Origin: Sulfitobacter sp.
GTDB taxonomy: Bacteria > Pseudomonadota > Alphaproteobacteria > Rhodobacterales > Rhodobacteraceae
Direction: 5' to 3'
Assembly: GCA_965212515.1 (NCBI GenBank)
Contig: OZ243121.1
Location: forward strand, 17,620-81,619
Length of the DNA: 64,000 bases
In this document: in pieces, positions 9,928 through 19,618 of the stretch
How positions within the stretch are numbered: position 1 is the stretch's first letter
Layout of the letters: each line of letters begins with the position of its first letter
Made by a program: the position numbers and the translations under genes
Notes under the pieces: generated by a model
What the model saw: only the letters and a program-made list of their open reading frames with translations
What the model was told of the DNA's origin: nothing
Databases searched by the model: none

Positions 9928-11703
9928 GTGGATGCCAGACCAAGAACCGGGAAAGCCCCTGTCCGCCCGCCCGTCACGCCCTGGCGGGCGCTTGCCCTGG
10001 CGGCCCTCCTGCTCTGGCCCGGGCACCTGGCCCTGGCCCAGACGGCAAGCGAGATCACCCCCGGCAGCTTTGCCCCCGAGGGCCAGCGCCTGACCGGCGC
10101 GGTGGTCTTCTCCGGCGAGCGCGGCACCAAGCCCCCGCCGGGGGCGGAGCGGCTTCTGATCACCCTGGGCGGTGTCGCCATCGAGGGCGCCCTGCCGCAA
10201 ATGGCGGCGGAGAACCAGGCAGTGCGCGCGCGCCTGAGCGGCGGCACCATCACGGTGGCCGAAATCTTCAACGCCGCCTCCGACCTGGAGAACGCCTATG
10301 CCCAGGCGGGCTTCGTCCTGGTGCGGGTGGTGCTCCCGGCCCAGACCCTGAGGGACGGCGGCAGCCTGCGCATCGAGGTGGTGGACGGCTTCGTCGAGAG
10401 CGTGGACACCCGCGCCCTGCCGGCCCCCGTGCGCGAGCGCATCAGCGCCCTGACCGAACCCCTGGTGGGGCGGCGCGGCCTGCGCCTGCCCGAGCTGGAG
10501 CGCCAGCTTCTTATCGCGGGGGACACCTACGGCGTGGCCCTGGGCTCGGCCCTGGCCGCCGGGGCGACGCCGGGGGCCACGACCCTGATCCTCAAGCCGG
10601 AGTTCCAGCGGGTCACCGGCTTCTACGCCTTCGACAACCTGGTGGACGAGGATCTAGGCCCGCTTGTTCTCTCCGCCGGGGTGGAGCTGAACAGCCCCTT
10701 CTCCTACGGCGAGACGATCTATGGCCGCCTCTCCCTGAGCCCCGCGGGGGACGATTCAAACGGTGTCGGCGCCAGCCTCGGGAGCGAGCCTCGGCTGCGG
10801 ACCGCCTCCCTGGGCGCGGTGGTGCCCCTGGGCCTCCAGGGGATGACCCTGAACCTCGAAACCACGGACAGCCGCACCGCGCCGAAGGACCAGGCGGTGC
10901 CCACGGTGAGCCACTTCGAGCGCCATTCGCTGCGGCTCTTCTACCCCTTCGTGCGCTCGCGCCAGCGCAACCTCTCGGGGCGCCTCTCGCTCGATCTTCA
11001 GAGCGACGAGCAGTTCCTCGTCACCGGCGGCGGCGGGCGCAGCCCGGTCTACCGCGACGAGACGACCGTGCTCAGGGCCGCCGTCGATGGCTTCTGGCTG
11101 ACCGAAGCCGGGGCCGCGATCGAGGCCGGTGCGGTGCTCTCACGCGGGATCGACGCCCTGGGAGCGCGCACCGCGGCCGATGCGGTGGGGGGCACGCCGC
11201 TCTCGCGCCAGGGGGCCGACGCGGAATTCACCAAGCTGGTCCTCTCGGCCCGCTACCGCCAGAAGCTGGGCGAGGACTTTGCCCTCTCGCTCTCGGGCCG
11301 GGCCCAGAGTTCCTTCGGCGATCCCCTCATCACCGGGGAGCAGTTCGGCATTGCCGGGCCGCAGGAAATCTCGGCCTTCGACGCGGGCGAGATCAAGGGC
11401 GACAGCGGCCTTGTGGTGCGCGCCGAGGTCTCGGCCCCGCGCCAGCGGCGGCTCTTCCAGCGCGACGTGCTGGTCTCTCCCTACATCTTTGCCGCCGCCG
11501 GACGGGTCCACCGCGAGCAGCCGACGGCGGCCGAGAGCCGCAATACCACGGCCACCGCCTATGGCATCGGCATCGAATTCAACAGTCTGCAGAAATCCAG
11601 ATTCACCTCGGCCCGCCTGCGGGTCGAATACGGAAGGGGAAATCGCGATGACAACCTGCCGGACAACAATCGCTTCAGCATCCAGGGGTCCATCCGGTTC
11701 TGA
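9928..11703 (+). CDS. ShlB/FhaC/HecB-family two-partner secretion outer-membrane transporter (TpsB)
   Basis: GTG start. Signal peptide ALALAALLLWPGHLALA, POTRA-like N-terminal region, and a long beta-barrel region ending ...FSIQGSIRF. Lies directly upstream of a TPS-domain exoprotein gene. Confidence 0.9.
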   Translation: MDARPRTGKAPVRPPVTPWRALALAALLLWPGHLALAQTASEITPGSFAPEGQRLTGAVVFSGERGTKPPPGAERLLITLGGVAIEGALPQMAAENQAVRARLSGGTITVAEIFNAASDLENAYAQAGFVLVRVVLPAQTLRDGGSLRIEVVDGFVESVDTRALPAPVRERISALTEPLVGRRGLRLPELERQLLIAGDTYGVALGSALAAGATPGATTLILKPEFQRVTGFYAFDNLVDEDLGPLVLSAGVELNSPFSYGETIYGRLSLSPAGDDSNGVGASLGSEPRLRTASLGAVVPLGLQGMTLNLETTDSRTAPKDQAVPTVSHFERHSLRLFYPFVRSRQRNLSGRLSLDLQSDEQFLVTGGGGRSPVYRDETTVLRAAVDGFWLTEAGAAIEAGAVLSRGIDALGARTAADAVGGTPLSRQGADAEFTKLVLSARYRQKLGEDFALSLSGRAQSSFGDPLITGEQFGIAGPQEISAFDAGEIKGDSGLVVRAEVSAPRQRRLFQRDVLVSPYIFAAAGRVHREQPTAAESRNTTATAYGIGIEFNSLQKSRFTSARLRVEYGRGNRDDNLPDNNRFSIQGSIRF

Positions 11704-17674: not shown

Positions 17675-19618
17675 GTGACGCGCCGCCTGATCCTCCTCTG
17701 GTCCGCCTTCTGCCTGTTCCTGTCGGTCGGCCTCGGGCTGGCCCAGGCACCCGAGGATGAGAGCCGGGTCGCCCTGATCGTGGGCAATTCGGACTACGAT
17801 CTGGTCGGCTCGCTCGATAACCCCGGCAACGATGCCAGCGATATGGCCGTGGCCCTCGAGGGGCTGGGCTTCGAGGTCTACCTCGGGCTCGACGTGACCC
17901 TGGCCGAGATGGGCCGCCTGACGGAGGCCTTTGCGCAGGCCACCGCCAACGCCGACGTGGCGCTCTTCTACTACGCGGGCCACGGCTTCCAGGTCGGGGG
18001 CGAGAACTACCTGGTGCCCACCGATGCCCGCATACAGCGCCCCGAGGACGTGGGCAGCCAGACCTTCCCCCTGGGCGAGGTGCTGCGCCTGATGGAGGCG
18101 GCGCCGGGGATCAAGTTCGTCTTTCTCGATGCCTGCCGGGACAATCCCTTCGAGGGGGTCCTGAGCGCCGTGTCGGAGGGGCTGGCGCGGGTCGGCGACG
18201 CGCGGGACTTCATGATCTCCTTCGCCACCCAACCCGACAACGTGGCCTACGACGGCACCGGGCGGAACTCCTTCTTCACCGAGGCCCTGCTGGGCCACAT
18301 CTACACCCCGGGGCAGGACATCTCGGACCTGATGATCCAGGTGCGCAAGGATGTCCTGGCGGCCACCGGCGGGCGCCAGATCCCCTGGGAAAACAGCTCC
18401 CTCACCCGGCAGTTCCGCTTCGATCCGCGCCCCGATACCGTCTCGGCCGAGACCCTGCTGTGGCAGGTGGCGGCCAACGCCCGCGATCCGCAGCTCATGA
18501 AGCTCTATGCCGAACGCTATCCCCAGGGCACGCACCTGCCCCAGGTCATGGCCTTTCTCGATCCCGAGAGCGGCGGCACCCTGTCGCGCACCTACAGCCC
18601 CACGGAGCCCGACGCCCAGGAGACCCGGCTCTGGCAACTGGCGCAGCGCAGCCGGATGCGGACCCTGGTGCAGTTCTACATCGACCAGTATCCCCAGGGC
18701 GCCCACGCGCGCGAGGCGCGGCGGCTGATCGCCACCCTGCCCTCGGGCGAGGAGGGCGGGCCGGGGCCCCTCTGCGAACGGCTGGCCACCCACCCGCGCG
18801 ATGCCACCGCCAGCACGGCGGGCATCCCCTTCGCCCAGTTGCAGCAGAACGCCGTGGCGGCGATCCAGGCCTGCGAGGCGGCGGCGGCCGCGGCGCCCGA
18901 GCTGCCCCACTACCGCGCGCTGCTGGCGCGGGCCACCATCGCGGCGGGCGATCTGGCCCGCGCCGTGAGCCTCTACCAGGAGGCGGCGGAGCTGGGCGAC
19001 CTGCGCGCCATGGTGAGCCTCGGGCTACTGATGGAGCAGGGCCAGGGCCTGCCGCAGAACCGGACGGAGGCGCTGCGGCTTTACCAGCGGGCGGCCAAGG
19101 GCGGCAGCGCGGACGGGATGATCAACCTGGCCTACGCGCTCTTTACCGGCGATGGCGTCCAGGCGGACCCGGATCAGGCCATCGCCCTCTTTCGCCAGGC
19201 GGCAGAGGAGGGCTCGGCCATCGCCACCTTCAACCTCGGGGTCCTGACCCAGGACGGGGTGACGGGCGAGCCTTCGGAGGCCCTGGCGCTCTTCCGGCGG
19301 GCGGCCCAGGGCGGCGAGGGGCGCGGCTACGTGGCCGGGGCGATCCTGCTGGACGAGGGCAGGGGCGTGCCCCGCGACCCCGAGGCGGCGGCCAACATGC
19401 TGCTGCGCGGTGCGGCGGAGGATGGCGGCCAGTCGATCCAGGAGCTGACCCAGAAGACCCAGGACTGGTCGCGCGAGACGGTCATGGCGGTGCAGCGGCG
19501 GCTGCAACAGGCGGGCCACTACGACAGCACGGTCGATGGCCTGGCGGGGCCGCGCTTTGCCGCGGCGCTGGAGGCTTGGCGCAACGGCGGCTTCGATGCC
19601 GCCGTGCTTGTCGAGTAG
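17675..19618 (+). CDS. secreted caspase-family (peptidase C14) protein with Sel1 repeats and C-terminal PG_binding_1-like domain
   Basis: GTG start 12 nt after the tpsA stop. Signal peptide ...SVGLGLAQA. Caspase His in YYAGHG (H103, nt 17981-17983) and Cys in FLDACRDNPF (C154, nt 18134-18136). Several Sel1-like repeats (e.g. GDLRAMVSLGLLMEQGQGLPQNRTEALRLYQRAA). C-terminal VMAVQRRLQQAGHYDSTVDGLAGPRFAAALEAW. Confidence 0.85.
   Translation: MTRRLILLWSAFCLFLSVGLGLAQAPEDESRVALIVGNSDYDLVGSLDNPGNDASDMAVALEGLGFEVYLGLDVTLAEMGRLTEAFAQATANADVALFYYAGHGFQVGGENYLVPTDARIQRPEDVGSQTFPLGEVLRLMEAAPGIKFVFLDACRDNPFEGVLSAVSEGLARVGDARDFMISFATQPDNVAYDGTGRNSFFTEALLGHIYTPGQDISDLMIQVRKDVLAATGGRQIPWENSSLTRQFRFDPRPDTVSAETLLWQVAANARDPQLMKLYAERYPQGTHLPQVMAFLDPESGGTLSRTYSPTEPDAQETRLWQLAQRSRMRTLVQFYIDQYPQGAHAREARRLIATLPSGEEGGPGPLCERLATHPRDATASTAGIPFAQLQQNAVAAIQACEAAAAAAPELPHYRALLARATIAAGDLARAVSLYQEAAELGDLRAMVSLGLLMEQGQGLPQNRTEALRLYQRAAKGGSADGMINLAYALFTGDGVQADPDQAIALFRQAAEEGSAIATFNLGVLTQDGVTGEPSEALALFRRAAQGGEGRGYVAGAILLDEGRGVPRDPEAAANMLLRGAAEDGGQSIQELTQKTQDWSRETVMAVQRRLQQAGHYDSTVDGLAGPRFAAALEAWRNGGFDAAVLVE

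What the first reader, a model, noticed from the sequence alone, without database searches (positions are those of the whole stretch)
9928..19618. Two-partner secretion operon with a periplasmic caspase-Sel1-PG-binding protein as third gene
tpsB (9928-11703), tpsA (to 17662) and a gene for a signal-peptide-bearing C14 caspase-fold protease are packed together; the last gap is only 12 nt. The protease has an intact His/Cys dyad (H103 in YYAGHG, C154 in LDACRDNPF), Sel1 repeats and a PG_binding_1-like tail. Canonical TPS loci are two genes. Here a peptidoglycan-tethered, cysteine-protease-like protein is positioned to meet the TpsA as it crosses the periplasm. That suggests it matures, releases or quality-controls the exoprotein, or is itself regulated by it. 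Caspase/CHAT-fold proteins near FHA-like genes recur in genomes, to my recollection, without an assigned mechanism.
Basis: partly seen in the sequence, partly recalled or inferred. Interest (0 to 1): 0.65.

Follow-up and report, generated by a model that had tools for sequence, protein, structure and literature searches.

The report
T6SS-linked TPS filament with periplasmic paracaspase

Summary
The genes are tpsB (9928-11703), tpsA (11648-17662, overlapping tpsB by 56 nt) and a Sec-signal C14/Sel1/PG-binding-like protein (17675-19618, 12-nt gap). H103 and C154 are invariant in 21 orthologues.

1. The protease is paracaspase/metacaspase-like. Its closest solved relative is MALT1, and its S1 residues D53 and D152 are acidic, so it should cut after Arg/Lys.

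2. The partner that stays constant is a new ~160-aa five-helix C-terminal domain (CTD), not TPS as such. The CTD has an invariant Cys pair and an invariant terminal Leu. A CTD gene sits directly upstream of the protease gene in 22 of 23 taxa. In 3 of them it is a small Sec-signal protein with no TPS, which argues that the CTD is periplasmic.

3. T6SS or threonine-phosphorylation genes (ppkA-like kinase, PP2C, tagF, tssM, tssH, vgrG and others) lie within the fetched flanks in 16 of 23 taxa, and in all 7 annotated plasmid/chromid copies. The window's left end carries the PpkA-like kinase, an OmpA protein and a TagX-like M15 peptidase.

Best model: a CdrA/LapG-like retention and release of a TpsA filament, attached to a T6SS. 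I found no literature describing this. Cleavage, topology and any T6SS effect are inferred, not shown.

The parts
9928..11703 (+). tpsB: Omp85-type TPS transporter, 591 aa, with a signal peptide, POTRA and a ShlB barrel
   Evidence: Pfam POTRA_2 3.1e-11 and ShlB 3.8e-20. Orthologues of 46-69% identity lie upstream of tpsA in 18 taxa.
11648..17662 (+). tpsA: 2004-aa exoprotein; its ATG overlaps tpsB by 56 nt
   Evidence: Start codon and SD. TPS domain and MBG_2 x9. TIGR01901 adhes_NPXG. Orthologue alignment shows a conserved N-terminal ~1000 aa, a variable repeat number and a conserved C-terminal domain.
11771..12514 (+). TPS secretion domain of TpsA (residues ~42-289, NPNGI motif)
   Evidence: Pfam PF05860, 111 bits. 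The columns are invariant in 4 orthologues.
14744..17047 (+). Nine ~85-aa MBG (YGX-type) repeats forming the stalk; copy number varies from 0 to 9 between orthologues
   Evidence: Pfam MBG_2, 9 stretches. DQSKxYG motif every ~85 residues. The length variation falls in this region.
17048..17182 (+). Pro/Gly-rich disordered linker (TpsA residues 1801-1845)
   Evidence: Read from the sequence. AF2 pLDDT is below 50 for the part of the linker included in the model.
17183..17659 (+). CTD: new five-helix C-terminal domain of TpsA, with invariant C1870/C1883, L1902-P1903, R1970 (22/23) and terminal L2004
   Evidence: AF2 pTM 0.73, with pLDDT about 90 in the helical part. No Pfam hit. No significant PDB fold match. 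244 clusters in an exhaustive HMM search, with the domain at the extreme C-terminus in all listed hits but two (P0306, P0351). 23-sequence alignment.
17675..19618 (+). Periplasmic C14 (paracaspase/metacaspase-like) protease with Sel1 repeats and a PG_binding_1-like tail, 647 aa
   Evidence: Pfam. 2760 homologues, the best 120 at 59% identity or more and with the same architecture. Alignment. MALT1 is the closest solved relative.
17675..17749 (+). Sec-type signal peptide (25 aa, AQA|P; no lipobox Cys at the cleavage site)
   Evidence: Read from the sequence. A hydrophobic N-terminus ending in A-x-A is present in the full-length orthologues.
17765..18415 (+). Peptidase_C14 domain: H103/C154 dyad; acidic S1 residues D53 and D152 (and D193)
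   Evidence: Pfam 1.7e-42. All five residues are invariant. In the HMMER alignment to MALT1, D53 aligns with D365, D152 with D462 and C154 with C464. Role of the MALT1 residues: PMC4357240.
18896..19444 (+). Sel1-repeat solenoid (about 5 repeats), preceded by a helical middle region carrying the invariant pair C367/C400
   Evidence: Pfam Sel1 1.8e-26. PDB Sel1 proteins at 1e-38. AF2 pLDDT above 90.
19472..19615 (+). PG_binding_1-like C-terminal tail
   Evidence: Pfam 22.3 bits, against a cut-off of 23. PF01471 is precomputed for several orthologues. The AF2 model is helical here.
2..1561 (-). N-terminal 520 aa of a PpkA-like transmembrane Ser/Thr kinase; the gene runs off the left end of the window
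   Evidence: Pfam Pkinase 1.4e-35. The full-length 98%-identical protein P0124 has one TM segment and a ~370-aa periplasmic domain. Orthologues at 61-67% identity sit next to PP2C-tagF-tssM-tssL-tssK-tagH-PAAR.
1594..2157 (-). OmpA-family PG-binding protein, syntenic with the T6SS kinase
   Evidence: Pfam OmpA 4.2e-18. Same position in Ruegeria and in L102/L103. Co-directional with and directly upstream of tpsB in three Paracoccus species and L093.
2331..3197 (+). Membrane-anchored M15_4 peptidase, TagX-like
   Evidence: Pfam Peptidase_M15_4 4.7e-12. The same gene lies in T6SS clusters of Ruegeria, Paracoccus and L102/L103. TagX as a VanY-superfamily T6SS accessory peptidase: PMC13584744.

Best explanation
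tpsB-tpsA-C14 is one operon. It encodes a surface filament and the periplasmic protease that acts on the filament's inner end, and the module is an accessory of a type VI secretion system regulated by threonine phosphorylation.

Proposed steps:
1. TpsB exports TpsA N-terminus first. The exported parts are the TPS beta-helix, a GLUG-like head and an MBG-repeat stalk of variable length.
2. The Pro/Gly linker stays threaded through TpsB.
3. The disulfide-stapled five-helix CTD folds in the periplasm and acts as a stopper or anchor, as the C-terminus of CdrA does.
4. The third protein is exported by Sec and tethered to peptidoglycan through its PG_binding_1-like tail.
5. Its Sel1 solenoid binds the CTD, possibly at the invariant ...L-COOH end.
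6. Its Arg/Lys-specific C14 domain cuts the CTD. A candidate site follows R1970 in the H4-H5 loop LIR|A(D/E)DP.
7. Cleavage releases or turns over the filament.

Because the pair sits beside ppkA, pppA, tagF, OmpA and a TagX-like M15 gene, this retention/release event is probably coordinated with T6SS assembly or target contact.

Shown by computation: genes, domains, invariant residues, the conserved CTD-protease gene pairing, and the T6SS linkage.
Inferred: the periplasmic location of the TpsA CTD, binding, cleavage, and any effect on the T6SS.
For: Operon compactness:
- A 56-nt overlap and a 12-nt gap, with no terminator-like site.
- Gaps of about 10-30 nt in orthologues.

Active-site conservation:
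- H103, C154, D53, D152 and D193 are invariant in 21 orthologues.
- MALT1-type alignment; the MALT1 S1 acidic triad binds P1 Arg (PMC4357240).

Periplasmic hallmarks of the protease:
- Sec signal, invariant Cys pair C367/C400, PG_binding_1-like tail.

The CTD:
- Confident five-helix bundle behind a disordered linker.
- The Cys pair is invariant in 23/23 sequences, the terminal Leu in 23/23 and R1970 in 22/23.
- The domain is at the extreme C-terminus in all but two of the 150 listed hits, out of 244 clusters.

Pairing:
- A CTD gene lies immediately upstream of the protease gene in 22 of 23 taxa.
- In L011, L012 and L063 the CTD is a small protein with only a Sec signal and a low-complexity linker.
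- In the reverse test, starting from the CTD, the protease gene is directly downstream in 7 of 9 informative metagenome loci.

T6SS linkage:
-.

Precedents:
- The periplasmic cysteine protease LapG cuts the C-terminal anchor of the TpsA adhesin CdrA and releases it (PMC4694147, PMC8346871).
- DegP and CtpA degrade the periplasmic FhaB prodomain (PMC8263021).
Against: - There is no direct evidence of cleavage, binding or CTD topology.
- The CTD could be exported and form the distal tip of the filament.
- Orthologous proteases occur without TPS, so TpsA release cannot be the ancestral or only function.
- One organism (L088/L089) has a TpsA with the CTD but no protease gene downstream; an M10-type metalloprotease gene and an IS256 transposase lie there instead.
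- R1970 is replaced in L063.
- In some Sulfitobacter-like genomes the operon is tens of kb from the T6SS cluster, about 63 kb on one contig.
- In the window, 6.7 kb of unrelated genes lie between the M15 gene and tpsB.
- The p10-like half of the protease model is of low confidence.
Confidence: 0.45

Rival explanations
1. Signal-relay reading. The protease's real substrate is a T6SS or envelope component, such as the periplasmic domain of the PpkA-like kinase, the OmpA/TagL-like anchor, TssM or the TagX-like peptidase. The CTD is then its regulator, inhibitor or adaptor rather than its substrate. Fusing the CTD to a TpsA filament couples an extracellular event, such as contact or pulling, to protease activity and so to T6SS firing.
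For: - The protease-CTD pair exists without TPS inside or beside T6SS/TPP genes. In Roseiarcus L011 the order is tssL-tssM-tagF-PP2C ... CTD-protease-OmpA-kinase ... tssB.
- The kinase gene lies within about 3 kb downstream of the protease gene in L011, L012, L095, L096 and L097.
- All the kinases have one TM segment and a large periplasmic domain.
- Diverse envelope proteins are already known to act upstream of PpkA: TagQRST, RtkS, TslA and TssW (PMC13584744, PMC12607579).
Against: - No interaction or cleavage-site evidence exists.
- The periplasmic domain of the kinase is not conserved between the Rhodobacterales and Rhizobiales examples.
- Two Paracoccus clusters show no kinase gene in the 16-kb flanks examined.
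- In some Sulfitobacter-like genomes the module lies far from the T6SS.
Confidence: 0.25
2. Stand-alone TPS adhesin with a dedicated maturation or release protease, essentially the first reader's idea. The proximity to T6SS reflects shared residence on plasmids, chromids or islands, or simple co-regulation of contact functions, with no mechanistic coupling.
For: - The tight three-gene operon is conserved.
- The operon is not T6SS-adjacent within 10 kb in S. geojensis, Tateyamaria, Cognatiyoonia and Methylobacterium.
- It lies 63 kb from the T6SS kinase on one contig.
- The window has unrelated genes between the T6SS accessory genes and tpsB.
Against: - T6SS or TPP markers fall within the fetched flanks in 16 of 23 taxa and in 7 of 7 annotated replicons.
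- The operon's position relative to the T6SS genes differs between lineages (inside the cluster in Paracoccus, directly upstream of tssA in Qingshengfaniella, next to the kinase and tssH in Pseudosulfitobacter), which island hitch-hiking does not readily explain.
- The TPS-less pair is also T6SS-embedded in Roseiarcus.
Confidence: 0.15
3. Structural tether. The third protein works mainly through Sel1 and PG binding to anchor the TpsA C-terminus or the TpsB complex to the cell wall, and its C14 domain is not used for proteolysis of TpsA.
For: - High-confidence Sel1 solenoid plus a PG_binding_1-like tail.
- The invariant C-terminal Leu of the CTD would suit recognition by a TPR/Sel1-type groove (this is inference).
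- T6SS clusters often carry PG anchors of the OmpA/TagL type (PMC13584744).
Against: The catalytic His and Cys and the acidic S1 residues are invariant across 21 orthologues down to 59% identity, and are kept in more distant relatives. That is not expected for a vestigial active site.
Confidence: 0.08
4. Programmed cell death or anti-phage caspase-like effector that happens to lie next to a TPS locus.
For: - Bacterial C14 proteins are often discussed in PCD and defence contexts (PMC3501461).
- A weak generic hit to a PADLOC 'caspase' model, 29.5 bits.
Against: - The Sec signal peptide, periplasmic Cys pairs and PG-binding tail place the protein outside the cytoplasm.
- No STAND NTPase, gasdermin, CRISPR or other defence partner is present.
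- The conserved partner is the CTD, in a T6SS context.
Confidence: 0.03

Closest known systems
CdrA/CdrB with the periplasmic protease LapG (Pseudomonas aeruginosa)
   Same: - A TpsA fibrillar adhesin is held on the cell by its C-terminal end in or under its TpsB.
- A periplasmic cysteine protease cuts that C-terminal anchor and releases the adhesin (PMC4694147, PMC8346871).
- The distal adhesive end is N-terminal.
   Different: - The protease here is clan CD family C14, not a LapG/BTLCP transglutaminase-like enzyme.
- It is encoded in the TPS operon itself and carries Sel1 repeats and a PG-binding tail.
- No TAAG site is visible in the CTD.
- No LapD or c-di-GMP partner is seen in the locus.
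- The anchor is a ~160-aa five-helix domain that also exists as a stand-alone periplasmic protein.
- The genomic context is a T6SS cluster.
FhaB/FhaC prodomain processing by DegP, CtpA and SphB1 (Bordetella)
   Same: - The C-terminal part of a TpsA stays in the periplasm behind a proline-rich region.
- It is removed by regulated periplasmic proteolysis (PMC8263021).
   Different: - The FhaB prodomain is much larger (about 1200 aa; this figure is from my own knowledge) and is not detectably homologous. Pfam finds nothing in this CTD.
- The proteases are serine proteases encoded elsewhere in the genome.
Envelope regulators upstream of the T6SS kinase PpkA/TagE: TagQRST, RtkS, TslA, TssW
   Same: - Non-core, lineage-specific envelope proteins.
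- Encoded in T6SS clusters next to ppkA/pppA.
- They position or trigger T6SS assembly (PMC13584744, PMC12607579).
   Different: - No sequence relationship to any of them.
- None of them is a TPS system or a protease.
- A 2026 review of T6SS accessory factors does not mention caspase, Sel1, hemagglutinin or two-partner secretion.
- A regulatory role for this module is untested.
MALT1 paracaspase, metacaspases and bacterial orthocaspases (MEROPS C14B)
   Same: - Caspase-hemoglobinase fold.
- A YYAGHG His motif and an LDxCR Cys motif.
- Acidic S1 residues that align with MALT1 D365 and D462.
- The metacaspase + Sel1 architecture was catalogued in 2012 (PMC3501461).
   Different: - Exported to the periplasm and tethered to PG.
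- It has a dedicated partner domain (the CTD) and a TPS/T6SS context.
- No activity data exist.
- The p10-like region is poorly modelled.
TagX, the T6SS L,D-endopeptidase (comparison for the window's M15_4 gene at 2331-3197)
   Same: - Membrane-anchored peptidase of the VanY/M15 superfamily.
- Encoded among T6SS accessory genes (PMC13584744).
   Different: - Orthology to Acinetobacter TagX was not tested.
- The window shows only this gene, the OmpA gene and the kinase gene; the T6SS core genes are not in the window.

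Membership tests
Two-partner secretion (type Vb) | TpsB of the Omp85 superfamily with POTRA domain(s) and a ShlB/FhaC-type barrel | tested here: met
   POTRA_2 at 43.4 bits (cut-off 24) and ShlB at 73 bits (cut-off 22.7).
Two-partner secretion (type Vb) | TpsA with an N-terminal TPS domain carrying the NPNG(I) motif, behind a signal peptide, encoded next to tpsB | tested here: met
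   PF05860 at 111 bits and TIGR01901 at 77 bits. VNPNGIFIG is invariant. tpsA overlaps tpsB by 56 nt.
Two-partner secretion (type Vb) | TpsB-dependent export of TpsA | not testable with these tools
   Needs secretion assays.
Peptidase family C14 (clan CD) | Caspase-hemoglobinase fold with an ordered His then Cys catalytic dyad | tested here: met
   PF00656 at 146 bits (cut-off 21.4). H103 and C154 are invariant. Foldseek TM 0.72 to the MALT1 caspase domain 3v4o.
Peptidase family C14, subfamily B (para-/meta-/orthocaspase type, Arg/Lys-specific) | Acidic residues in the S1 pocket, equivalent to MALT1 D365, D462 and E500 | tested here: inconclusive
   D53 aligns with D365 and D152 with D462 in the HMMER alignment. 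The equivalent of E500 (candidate D193, which is invariant) lies outside the aligned stretch and in a low-confidence part of the model. Role of the MALT1 residues: PMC4357240.
Peptidase family C14 | Proteolytic activity | not testable with these tools
   Needs an enzyme assay.
CdrAB-LapG type retention/release | LapG-family (BTLCP) periplasmic protease | tested here: not met
   The protease is C14. No other family is detected in the protein.
CdrAB-LapG type retention/release | C-terminal periplasmic retention element of the TpsA, with a LapG site (TAAG / Ala-Ala) | tested here: inconclusive
   A conserved C-terminal domain with an invariant Cys pair is present. No TAAG occurs in the CTD sequence. 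The topology cannot be tested here. Sec-only stand-alone CTD homologues support a periplasmic location.
CdrAB-LapG type retention/release | LapD-like c-di-GMP receptor controlling the protease | not tested
   None is seen in the locus or in the annotated neighbourhoods, but whole genomes were not searched.
T6SS accessory (Tag) module of the threonine-phosphorylation pathway | Encoded within or beside a T6SS cluster carrying ppkA/pppA/fha/tagF | tested here: met
   Met for the family: 16 of 23 taxa and 7 of 7 annotated replicons. In the window only the PpkA-like kinase, OmpA and M15 genes are visible at 2-3197. The T6SS core genes are inferred to lie left of the window, from orthologous kinases in L102, L103 and L094.
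T6SS accessory (Tag) module of the threonine-phosphorylation pathway | Homology to a named accessory protein (TagQ, TagR, TagS, TagT, TslA, TssW, RtkS) | tested here: not met
   Pfam and NCBIfam scans of TpsB, TpsA and the protease give no such hit.
T6SS accessory (Tag) module of the threonine-phosphorylation pathway | Effect on T6SS assembly, firing or PpkA activity | not testable with these tools
   Needs genetics and imaging.
Contact-dependent inhibition (CdiBAI) | Polymorphic C-terminal toxin after a VENN-type motif, followed by a small immunity gene | tested here: not met
   The C-terminal domain is conserved, not polymorphic, across 23 sequences. The downstream gene is a 647-aa exported protease, not an immunity protein.

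The most novel reading that the evidence does not exclude
The TpsA filament is an extracellular feeler for the T6SS. Its periplasmic CTD holds, or is held by, the PG-tethered paracaspase-like protease next to the PpkA-type kinase. Contact with, or pulling by, a neighbouring cell changes the CTD-protease interaction. The resulting proteolytic event activates or positions the threonine-phosphorylation pathway, so that the T6SS fires at the site of contact. This would be a protease-based outside-in trigger unrelated to TagQRST, TslA or TssW. Lineages with the stand-alone CTD would use the same periplasmic switch without the external filament.
Probability: 0.2. Interest if true: 0.9.

Novelty: new variant of a known kind. 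Interest (0 to 1): 0.72.

Why it matters
How T6SSs decide when and where to fire is an open question, and the known upstream sensors (TagQRST, TslA, TssW, RtkS) are lineage-specific. This module gives a concrete, genetically testable candidate in culturable Ruegeria, Paracoccus, Pseudosulfitobacter and Sulfitobacter strains.

For TPS biology it adds three things:
- A new C-terminal domain family (~240 clusters) that is not in Pfam and has no fold match among solved PDB structures.
- A dedicated in-operon protease.
- A natural "experiment": the same domain as a Sec-only periplasmic protein, which bears on TpsA topology.

For bacterial caspase homologues it offers a defined partner protein and a defined compartment. 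In the surveys read here, their roles were inferred from domain architecture and operon context, not from identified substrates.

Even on the conservative reading it would be a second case, after CdrA-LapG, of a periplasmic cysteine protease paired with the C-terminal end of a TpsA adhesin, here from an unrelated protease family.

Tried and rejected
- General C14-TPS association: rejected. None of 70 more distant alphaproteobacterial C14 loci has tpsB, tpsA or a CTD gene.
- CDI-type toxin/immunity reading: rejected, because the C-terminus is conserved and there is no small immunity gene.
- Defence or PCD reading: only a weak generic PADLOC caspase hit, and the protein is exported.
- Fold identification of the CTD: Foldseek against the PDB gave only generic helical bundles (best E 0.026, TM below 0.4). 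Pfam gave nothing.
- Word-indexed homologue search with the CTD returned only 3 fragments. The exhaustive HMM search was needed.
- The 9-sequence CTD alignment was too diverse for the pattern scan. A 4-sequence alignment worked.
- The promoter/terminator scan found nothing and is uninformative at 70% GC.
- The attempt to see DNA left of the window through the M15 protein returned only an 8.4-kb contig. The T6SS context of the window's kinase therefore rests on orthologues.
- My first crude gene calling missed the small CTD genes in L011, L012 and L063 and wrongly suggested that these loci lack a partner. This was corrected.
- Literature: ten searches found no paper linking bacterial C14 proteins with TPS or T6SS. 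The library covers open-access papers only.
- The apparent natural CTD-protease fusion P0351 is probably read-through or sequencing error, since a frameshifted tail follows, and was not used as evidence.

Full report
**1. What is in the window**

The window is ~70% GC. Its proteins are closest to those of Sulfitobacter, Ruegeria and other Roseobacteraceae.

- tpsB lies at 9928-11703 and has POTRA_2 and ShlB domains.
- tpsA ends at 17662. It has a TPS domain and nine MBG_2 repeats and also matches TIGR01901.
- The third gene lies at 17675-19618. It scores Peptidase_C14 146 bits and Sel1 92 bits. PG_binding_1 scores 22.3 bits, just under the 23-bit cut-off.

The tpsA start is ATG 11648, behind a GGAAGGGGA Shine-Dalgarno, so tpsA overlaps tpsB by 56 nt. 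The gap to the third gene is 12 nt. No terminator-like site lies inside the operon. The next gene, an FAD-binding oxidoreductase at 19623-21395, is convergent.

The third protein begins with a Sec-type signal, MTRRLILLWSAFCLFLSVGLGLAQA|PE.

**2. The protease family**

The word-indexed search found 2760 homologues. The best 120 are 59-98% identical over the full length and have the same architecture; those that carry a source name are almost all from Rhodobacterales.

In 21 aligned orthologues the following are invariant: H103, C154, D53, D152, D193, and a second Cys pair C367/C400 in the helical middle region.

MALT1 paracaspase is the closest solved protease domain by sequence (E 2.6e-11) and by fold. 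HMMER aligns D53 with MALT1 D365, YYAGHG with YYAGHG, and LDACR with LDMCR, which puts D152 opposite D462 and C154 opposite C464. In MALT1, D365, D462 and E500 bind the P1 arginine (PMC4357240).

I therefore predict Arg/Lys specificity, as in para-, meta- and orthocaspases, not Asp specificity. The AF2 model is confident for the Sel1 solenoid (pLDDT above 90) and poor for the p10-like half.

**3. The TpsA protein**

Orthologues range from 1231 to 2004 aa. The N-terminal ~1000 residues are conserved: the TPS beta-helix and a GLUG-like region. The number of MBG repeats varies from 0 to 9. After a Pro/Gly-rich linker comes a conserved C-terminal domain of ~160 aa, the CTD.

- The CTD has no Pfam match.
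- AF2 models it as a five-helix bundle, with pLDDT about 90 in the helical part and pTM 0.73, behind a disordered linker.
- It has no significant PDB fold match.
- An exhaustive profile search of 1.84 billion representatives found 244 clusters, 114 of them at E ≤ 1e-30.
- In all but two of the 150 listed hits the domain is at the very C-terminus. Full-length hits are 1000-2500 aa; many shorter ones are gene fragments.
- In a 23-sequence alignment, C1870 and C1883, L1902-P1903 and the terminal L2004 are invariant. R1970, in the H4-H5 loop LIRA(D/E)DP, is kept in 22 of 23.

**4. Is the adjacency conserved?**

The scan of one genome per species, together with plasmid and metagenome searches, gave 23 distinct taxa with an orthologous protease. 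Orthology was judged by similarity that includes the middle region.

- tpsB-tpsA lies directly upstream on the same strand in 17 taxa.
- In two more taxa tpsA lies directly upstream but a contig or record end cuts the sequence before tpsB.
- In Rhabdonatronobacter the order is protease-tpsB-tpsA.
- None of 70 loci with more distant alphaproteobacterial C14 genes has TPS genes.

Starting instead from the CTD, 7 of 9 informative metagenome loci have the protease gene immediately downstream. The exception is one organism, L088/L089, which has an M10-type metalloprotease gene and an IS256 transposase there.

**5. The partner that stays constant is the CTD**

Three orthologous loci seemed to lack TPS: Roseiarcus L011, L012 and L063.

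A CTD profile run on six-frame ORFs of all loci showed otherwise. Each of the three has a small gene directly upstream of the protease gene, on the same strand. Each encodes a Sec signal peptide, a low-complexity linker and a CTD homologue, with the Cys pair, the LP motif...SL(V/L)RA.D... and the terminal ...GL.

So a CTD gene precedes the protease gene in 22 of 23 taxa. It is fused to TpsA in 19 and stands alone in 3. The Methylobacterium TpsA also ends in this domain, with the protease gene 11 nt downstream.

A protein with only a Sec signal is expected to stop in the periplasm. Together with the invariant Cys pair and the Pro-rich linker, this supports a model in which the TpsA CTD stays in the periplasm. 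This is an inference, not a demonstration.

**6. The T6SS context**

The window begins with three genes:
- the N-terminal 520 aa of a Ser/Thr kinase (2-1561, minus strand);
- an OmpA-family gene (1594-2157, minus strand);
- an M15_4 peptidase gene (2331-3197, plus strand).

The full-length kinase, represented by P0124 at 98% identity, has one TM segment and a ~370-aa periplasmic domain.

In Ruegeria conchae the same three genes are flanked by PP2C, tagF, tssM, tssL, tssK, tagH, PAAR and vgrG on one side, and by tpsB-tpsA-protease on the other. Kinase orthologues at 67% and 61% identity show the same arrangement of M15, OmpA, kinase, PP2C, tagF, tssM, tssL, tssK, tagH and PAAR.

All seven plasmid or chromid copies of the protease orthologue are T6SS-linked.
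- In three Paracoccus species the unit OmpA-tpsB-tpsA-protease lies inside or at the edge of the cluster.
- In Pseudosulfitobacter and Sulfitobacter sp. S223 the protease gene abuts the kinase gene and tssH.
- In Qingshengfaniella it is followed by tssA-tssB-tssC-hcp.

In Roseiarcus the TPS-less CTD-protease pair sits between tssL-tssM-tagF-PP2C and OmpA-kinase.

Overall, T6SS or TPP markers fall within the fetched flanks in 16 of 23 taxa, against 3 of the 70 control C14 loci.

The linkage is loose in some Sulfitobacter-like genomes: about 63 kb on one contig, and nothing within 10 kb in S. geojensis. In the window, a VapBC-like pair, a CpXC gene and a giant 1689-aa gene lie between the M15 gene and tpsB. 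The T6SS core genes are not in the window. Their presence to the left of it is inferred from synteny.

**7. Mechanism**

The best-supported model is a retention/release device like CdrA-LapG.
1. TpsB exports TpsA.
2. The folded, disulfide-bonded CTD remains in the periplasm as a stopper.
3. The PG-tethered protease recognises the CTD through its Sel1 repeats and cuts after a basic residue.
4. The filament is released or turned over.

There are two precedents. LapG cleaves the C-terminal anchor of the TpsA adhesin CdrA (PMC4694147, PMC8346871). DegP and CtpA degrade the periplasmic FhaB prodomain (PMC8263021).

Because the pair travels with ppkA, pppA, tagF, OmpA and a TagX-like gene, I think this event is coordinated with T6SS activity. 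Envelope proteins that act upstream of PpkA are known to be diverse (PMC13584744, PMC12607579).

My probabilities:
- real conserved operon: 0.95
- functional CTD-protease partnership of some kind: 0.75
- CTD is periplasmic: 0.6
- CTD is the substrate: 0.45
- module belongs functionally to the T6SS: 0.55
- protease-based signalling to PpkA: 0.2

**8. Novelty**

A metacaspase + Sel1 architecture was catalogued in 2012 without context (PMC3501461). Ten full-text searches found nothing that links bacterial C14 proteins to TPS or T6SS. A 2026 review of T6SS accessory factors mentions none of caspase, Sel1, hemagglutinin or two-partner secretion.

I rate the finding a new variant of known kinds: periplasmic protease control of a TpsA, and a lineage-specific T6SS accessory module. 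It comes with a new domain family.

The main caveat is that everything beyond gene content, conservation and predicted folds is inference.

Noticed in passing
window 3272-3887 (+): A MazE/AbrB-like antitoxin gene and a PIN-domain toxin gene (a VapBC-like pair) are inserted between the M15 peptidase gene and the CpXC gene. They are absent at this position in Ruegeria.
   Followed up: partly
window 3893-4591 (-) and 4592-9661 (-): A CpXC-domain gene abuts a giant 1689-aa gene with no Pfam or NCBIfam hit and an HEVGH metallopeptidase-like motif near its C-terminus. A 41%-identical giant gene lies divergently upstream of tpsB in Sulfitobacter geojensis (L001) and in metagenome loci L085 and L086. 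It may therefore be linked to the TPS operon or be a T6SS cargo.
   Followed up: partly
window 17660-17677: tpsA and the protease gene are in the same reading frame, separated only by TGA and four codons. One metagenomic protein (P0351) is an in-frame CTD-protease read-through, on a contig that then frameshifts, so it is probably an error.
   Followed up: partly
window 14744-17047; L002, L003: The number of ~85-aa MBG repeats in TpsA orthologues ranges from 0 (Ruegeria, 1231 aa) to 9 (window, 2004 aa), so filament length is evolutionarily plastic.
   Followed up: partly
L094 21936-27257 (Ruegeria conchae): Just downstream of the protease-Sel1 gene lie a YceI-OmpA gene, two further Peptidase_C14 genes and two small genes of unknown function. 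Tateyamaria (L003) also has an extra C14 gene and a YceI-OmpA gene nearby.
   Followed up: partly
L099 (Rhizobium lentis) 14959-17100; L100 (Sinorhizobium americanum) 14905-17043: Distant caspase+Sel1 proteins (30% identity, 712 aa) sit at the edge of rhizobial T6SS clusters near vgrG, with no CTD gene and no TPS genes. This suggests a wider association between C14-Sel1 proteins and T6SS in Alphaproteobacteria.
   Followed up: partly
P0306 (from the representative search): A 514-aa protein from a low-GC organism has a Sec signal, a CTD-like domain lacking the Cys pair, and an unrelated C-terminal region. It is one of two listed hits in which the domain is not C-terminal.
   Followed up: no
window 2-1561 (-); P0124 residues 335-708: The ~370-aa periplasmic domain of the PpkA-like kinase has no Pfam match. 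It is conserved at 31-51% identity among the Rhodobacterales kinases linked to the module, but not in the Roseiarcus and L012 kinases.
   Followed up: partly
L088 8128-9309; L089 2241-3422: In the one organism whose CTD-bearing tpsA lacks the protease gene, the downstream gene encodes an M10/serralysin-like metalloprotease (HEIGHAIGLQH) with no signal peptide, followed by an IS256-family transposase.
   Followed up: no
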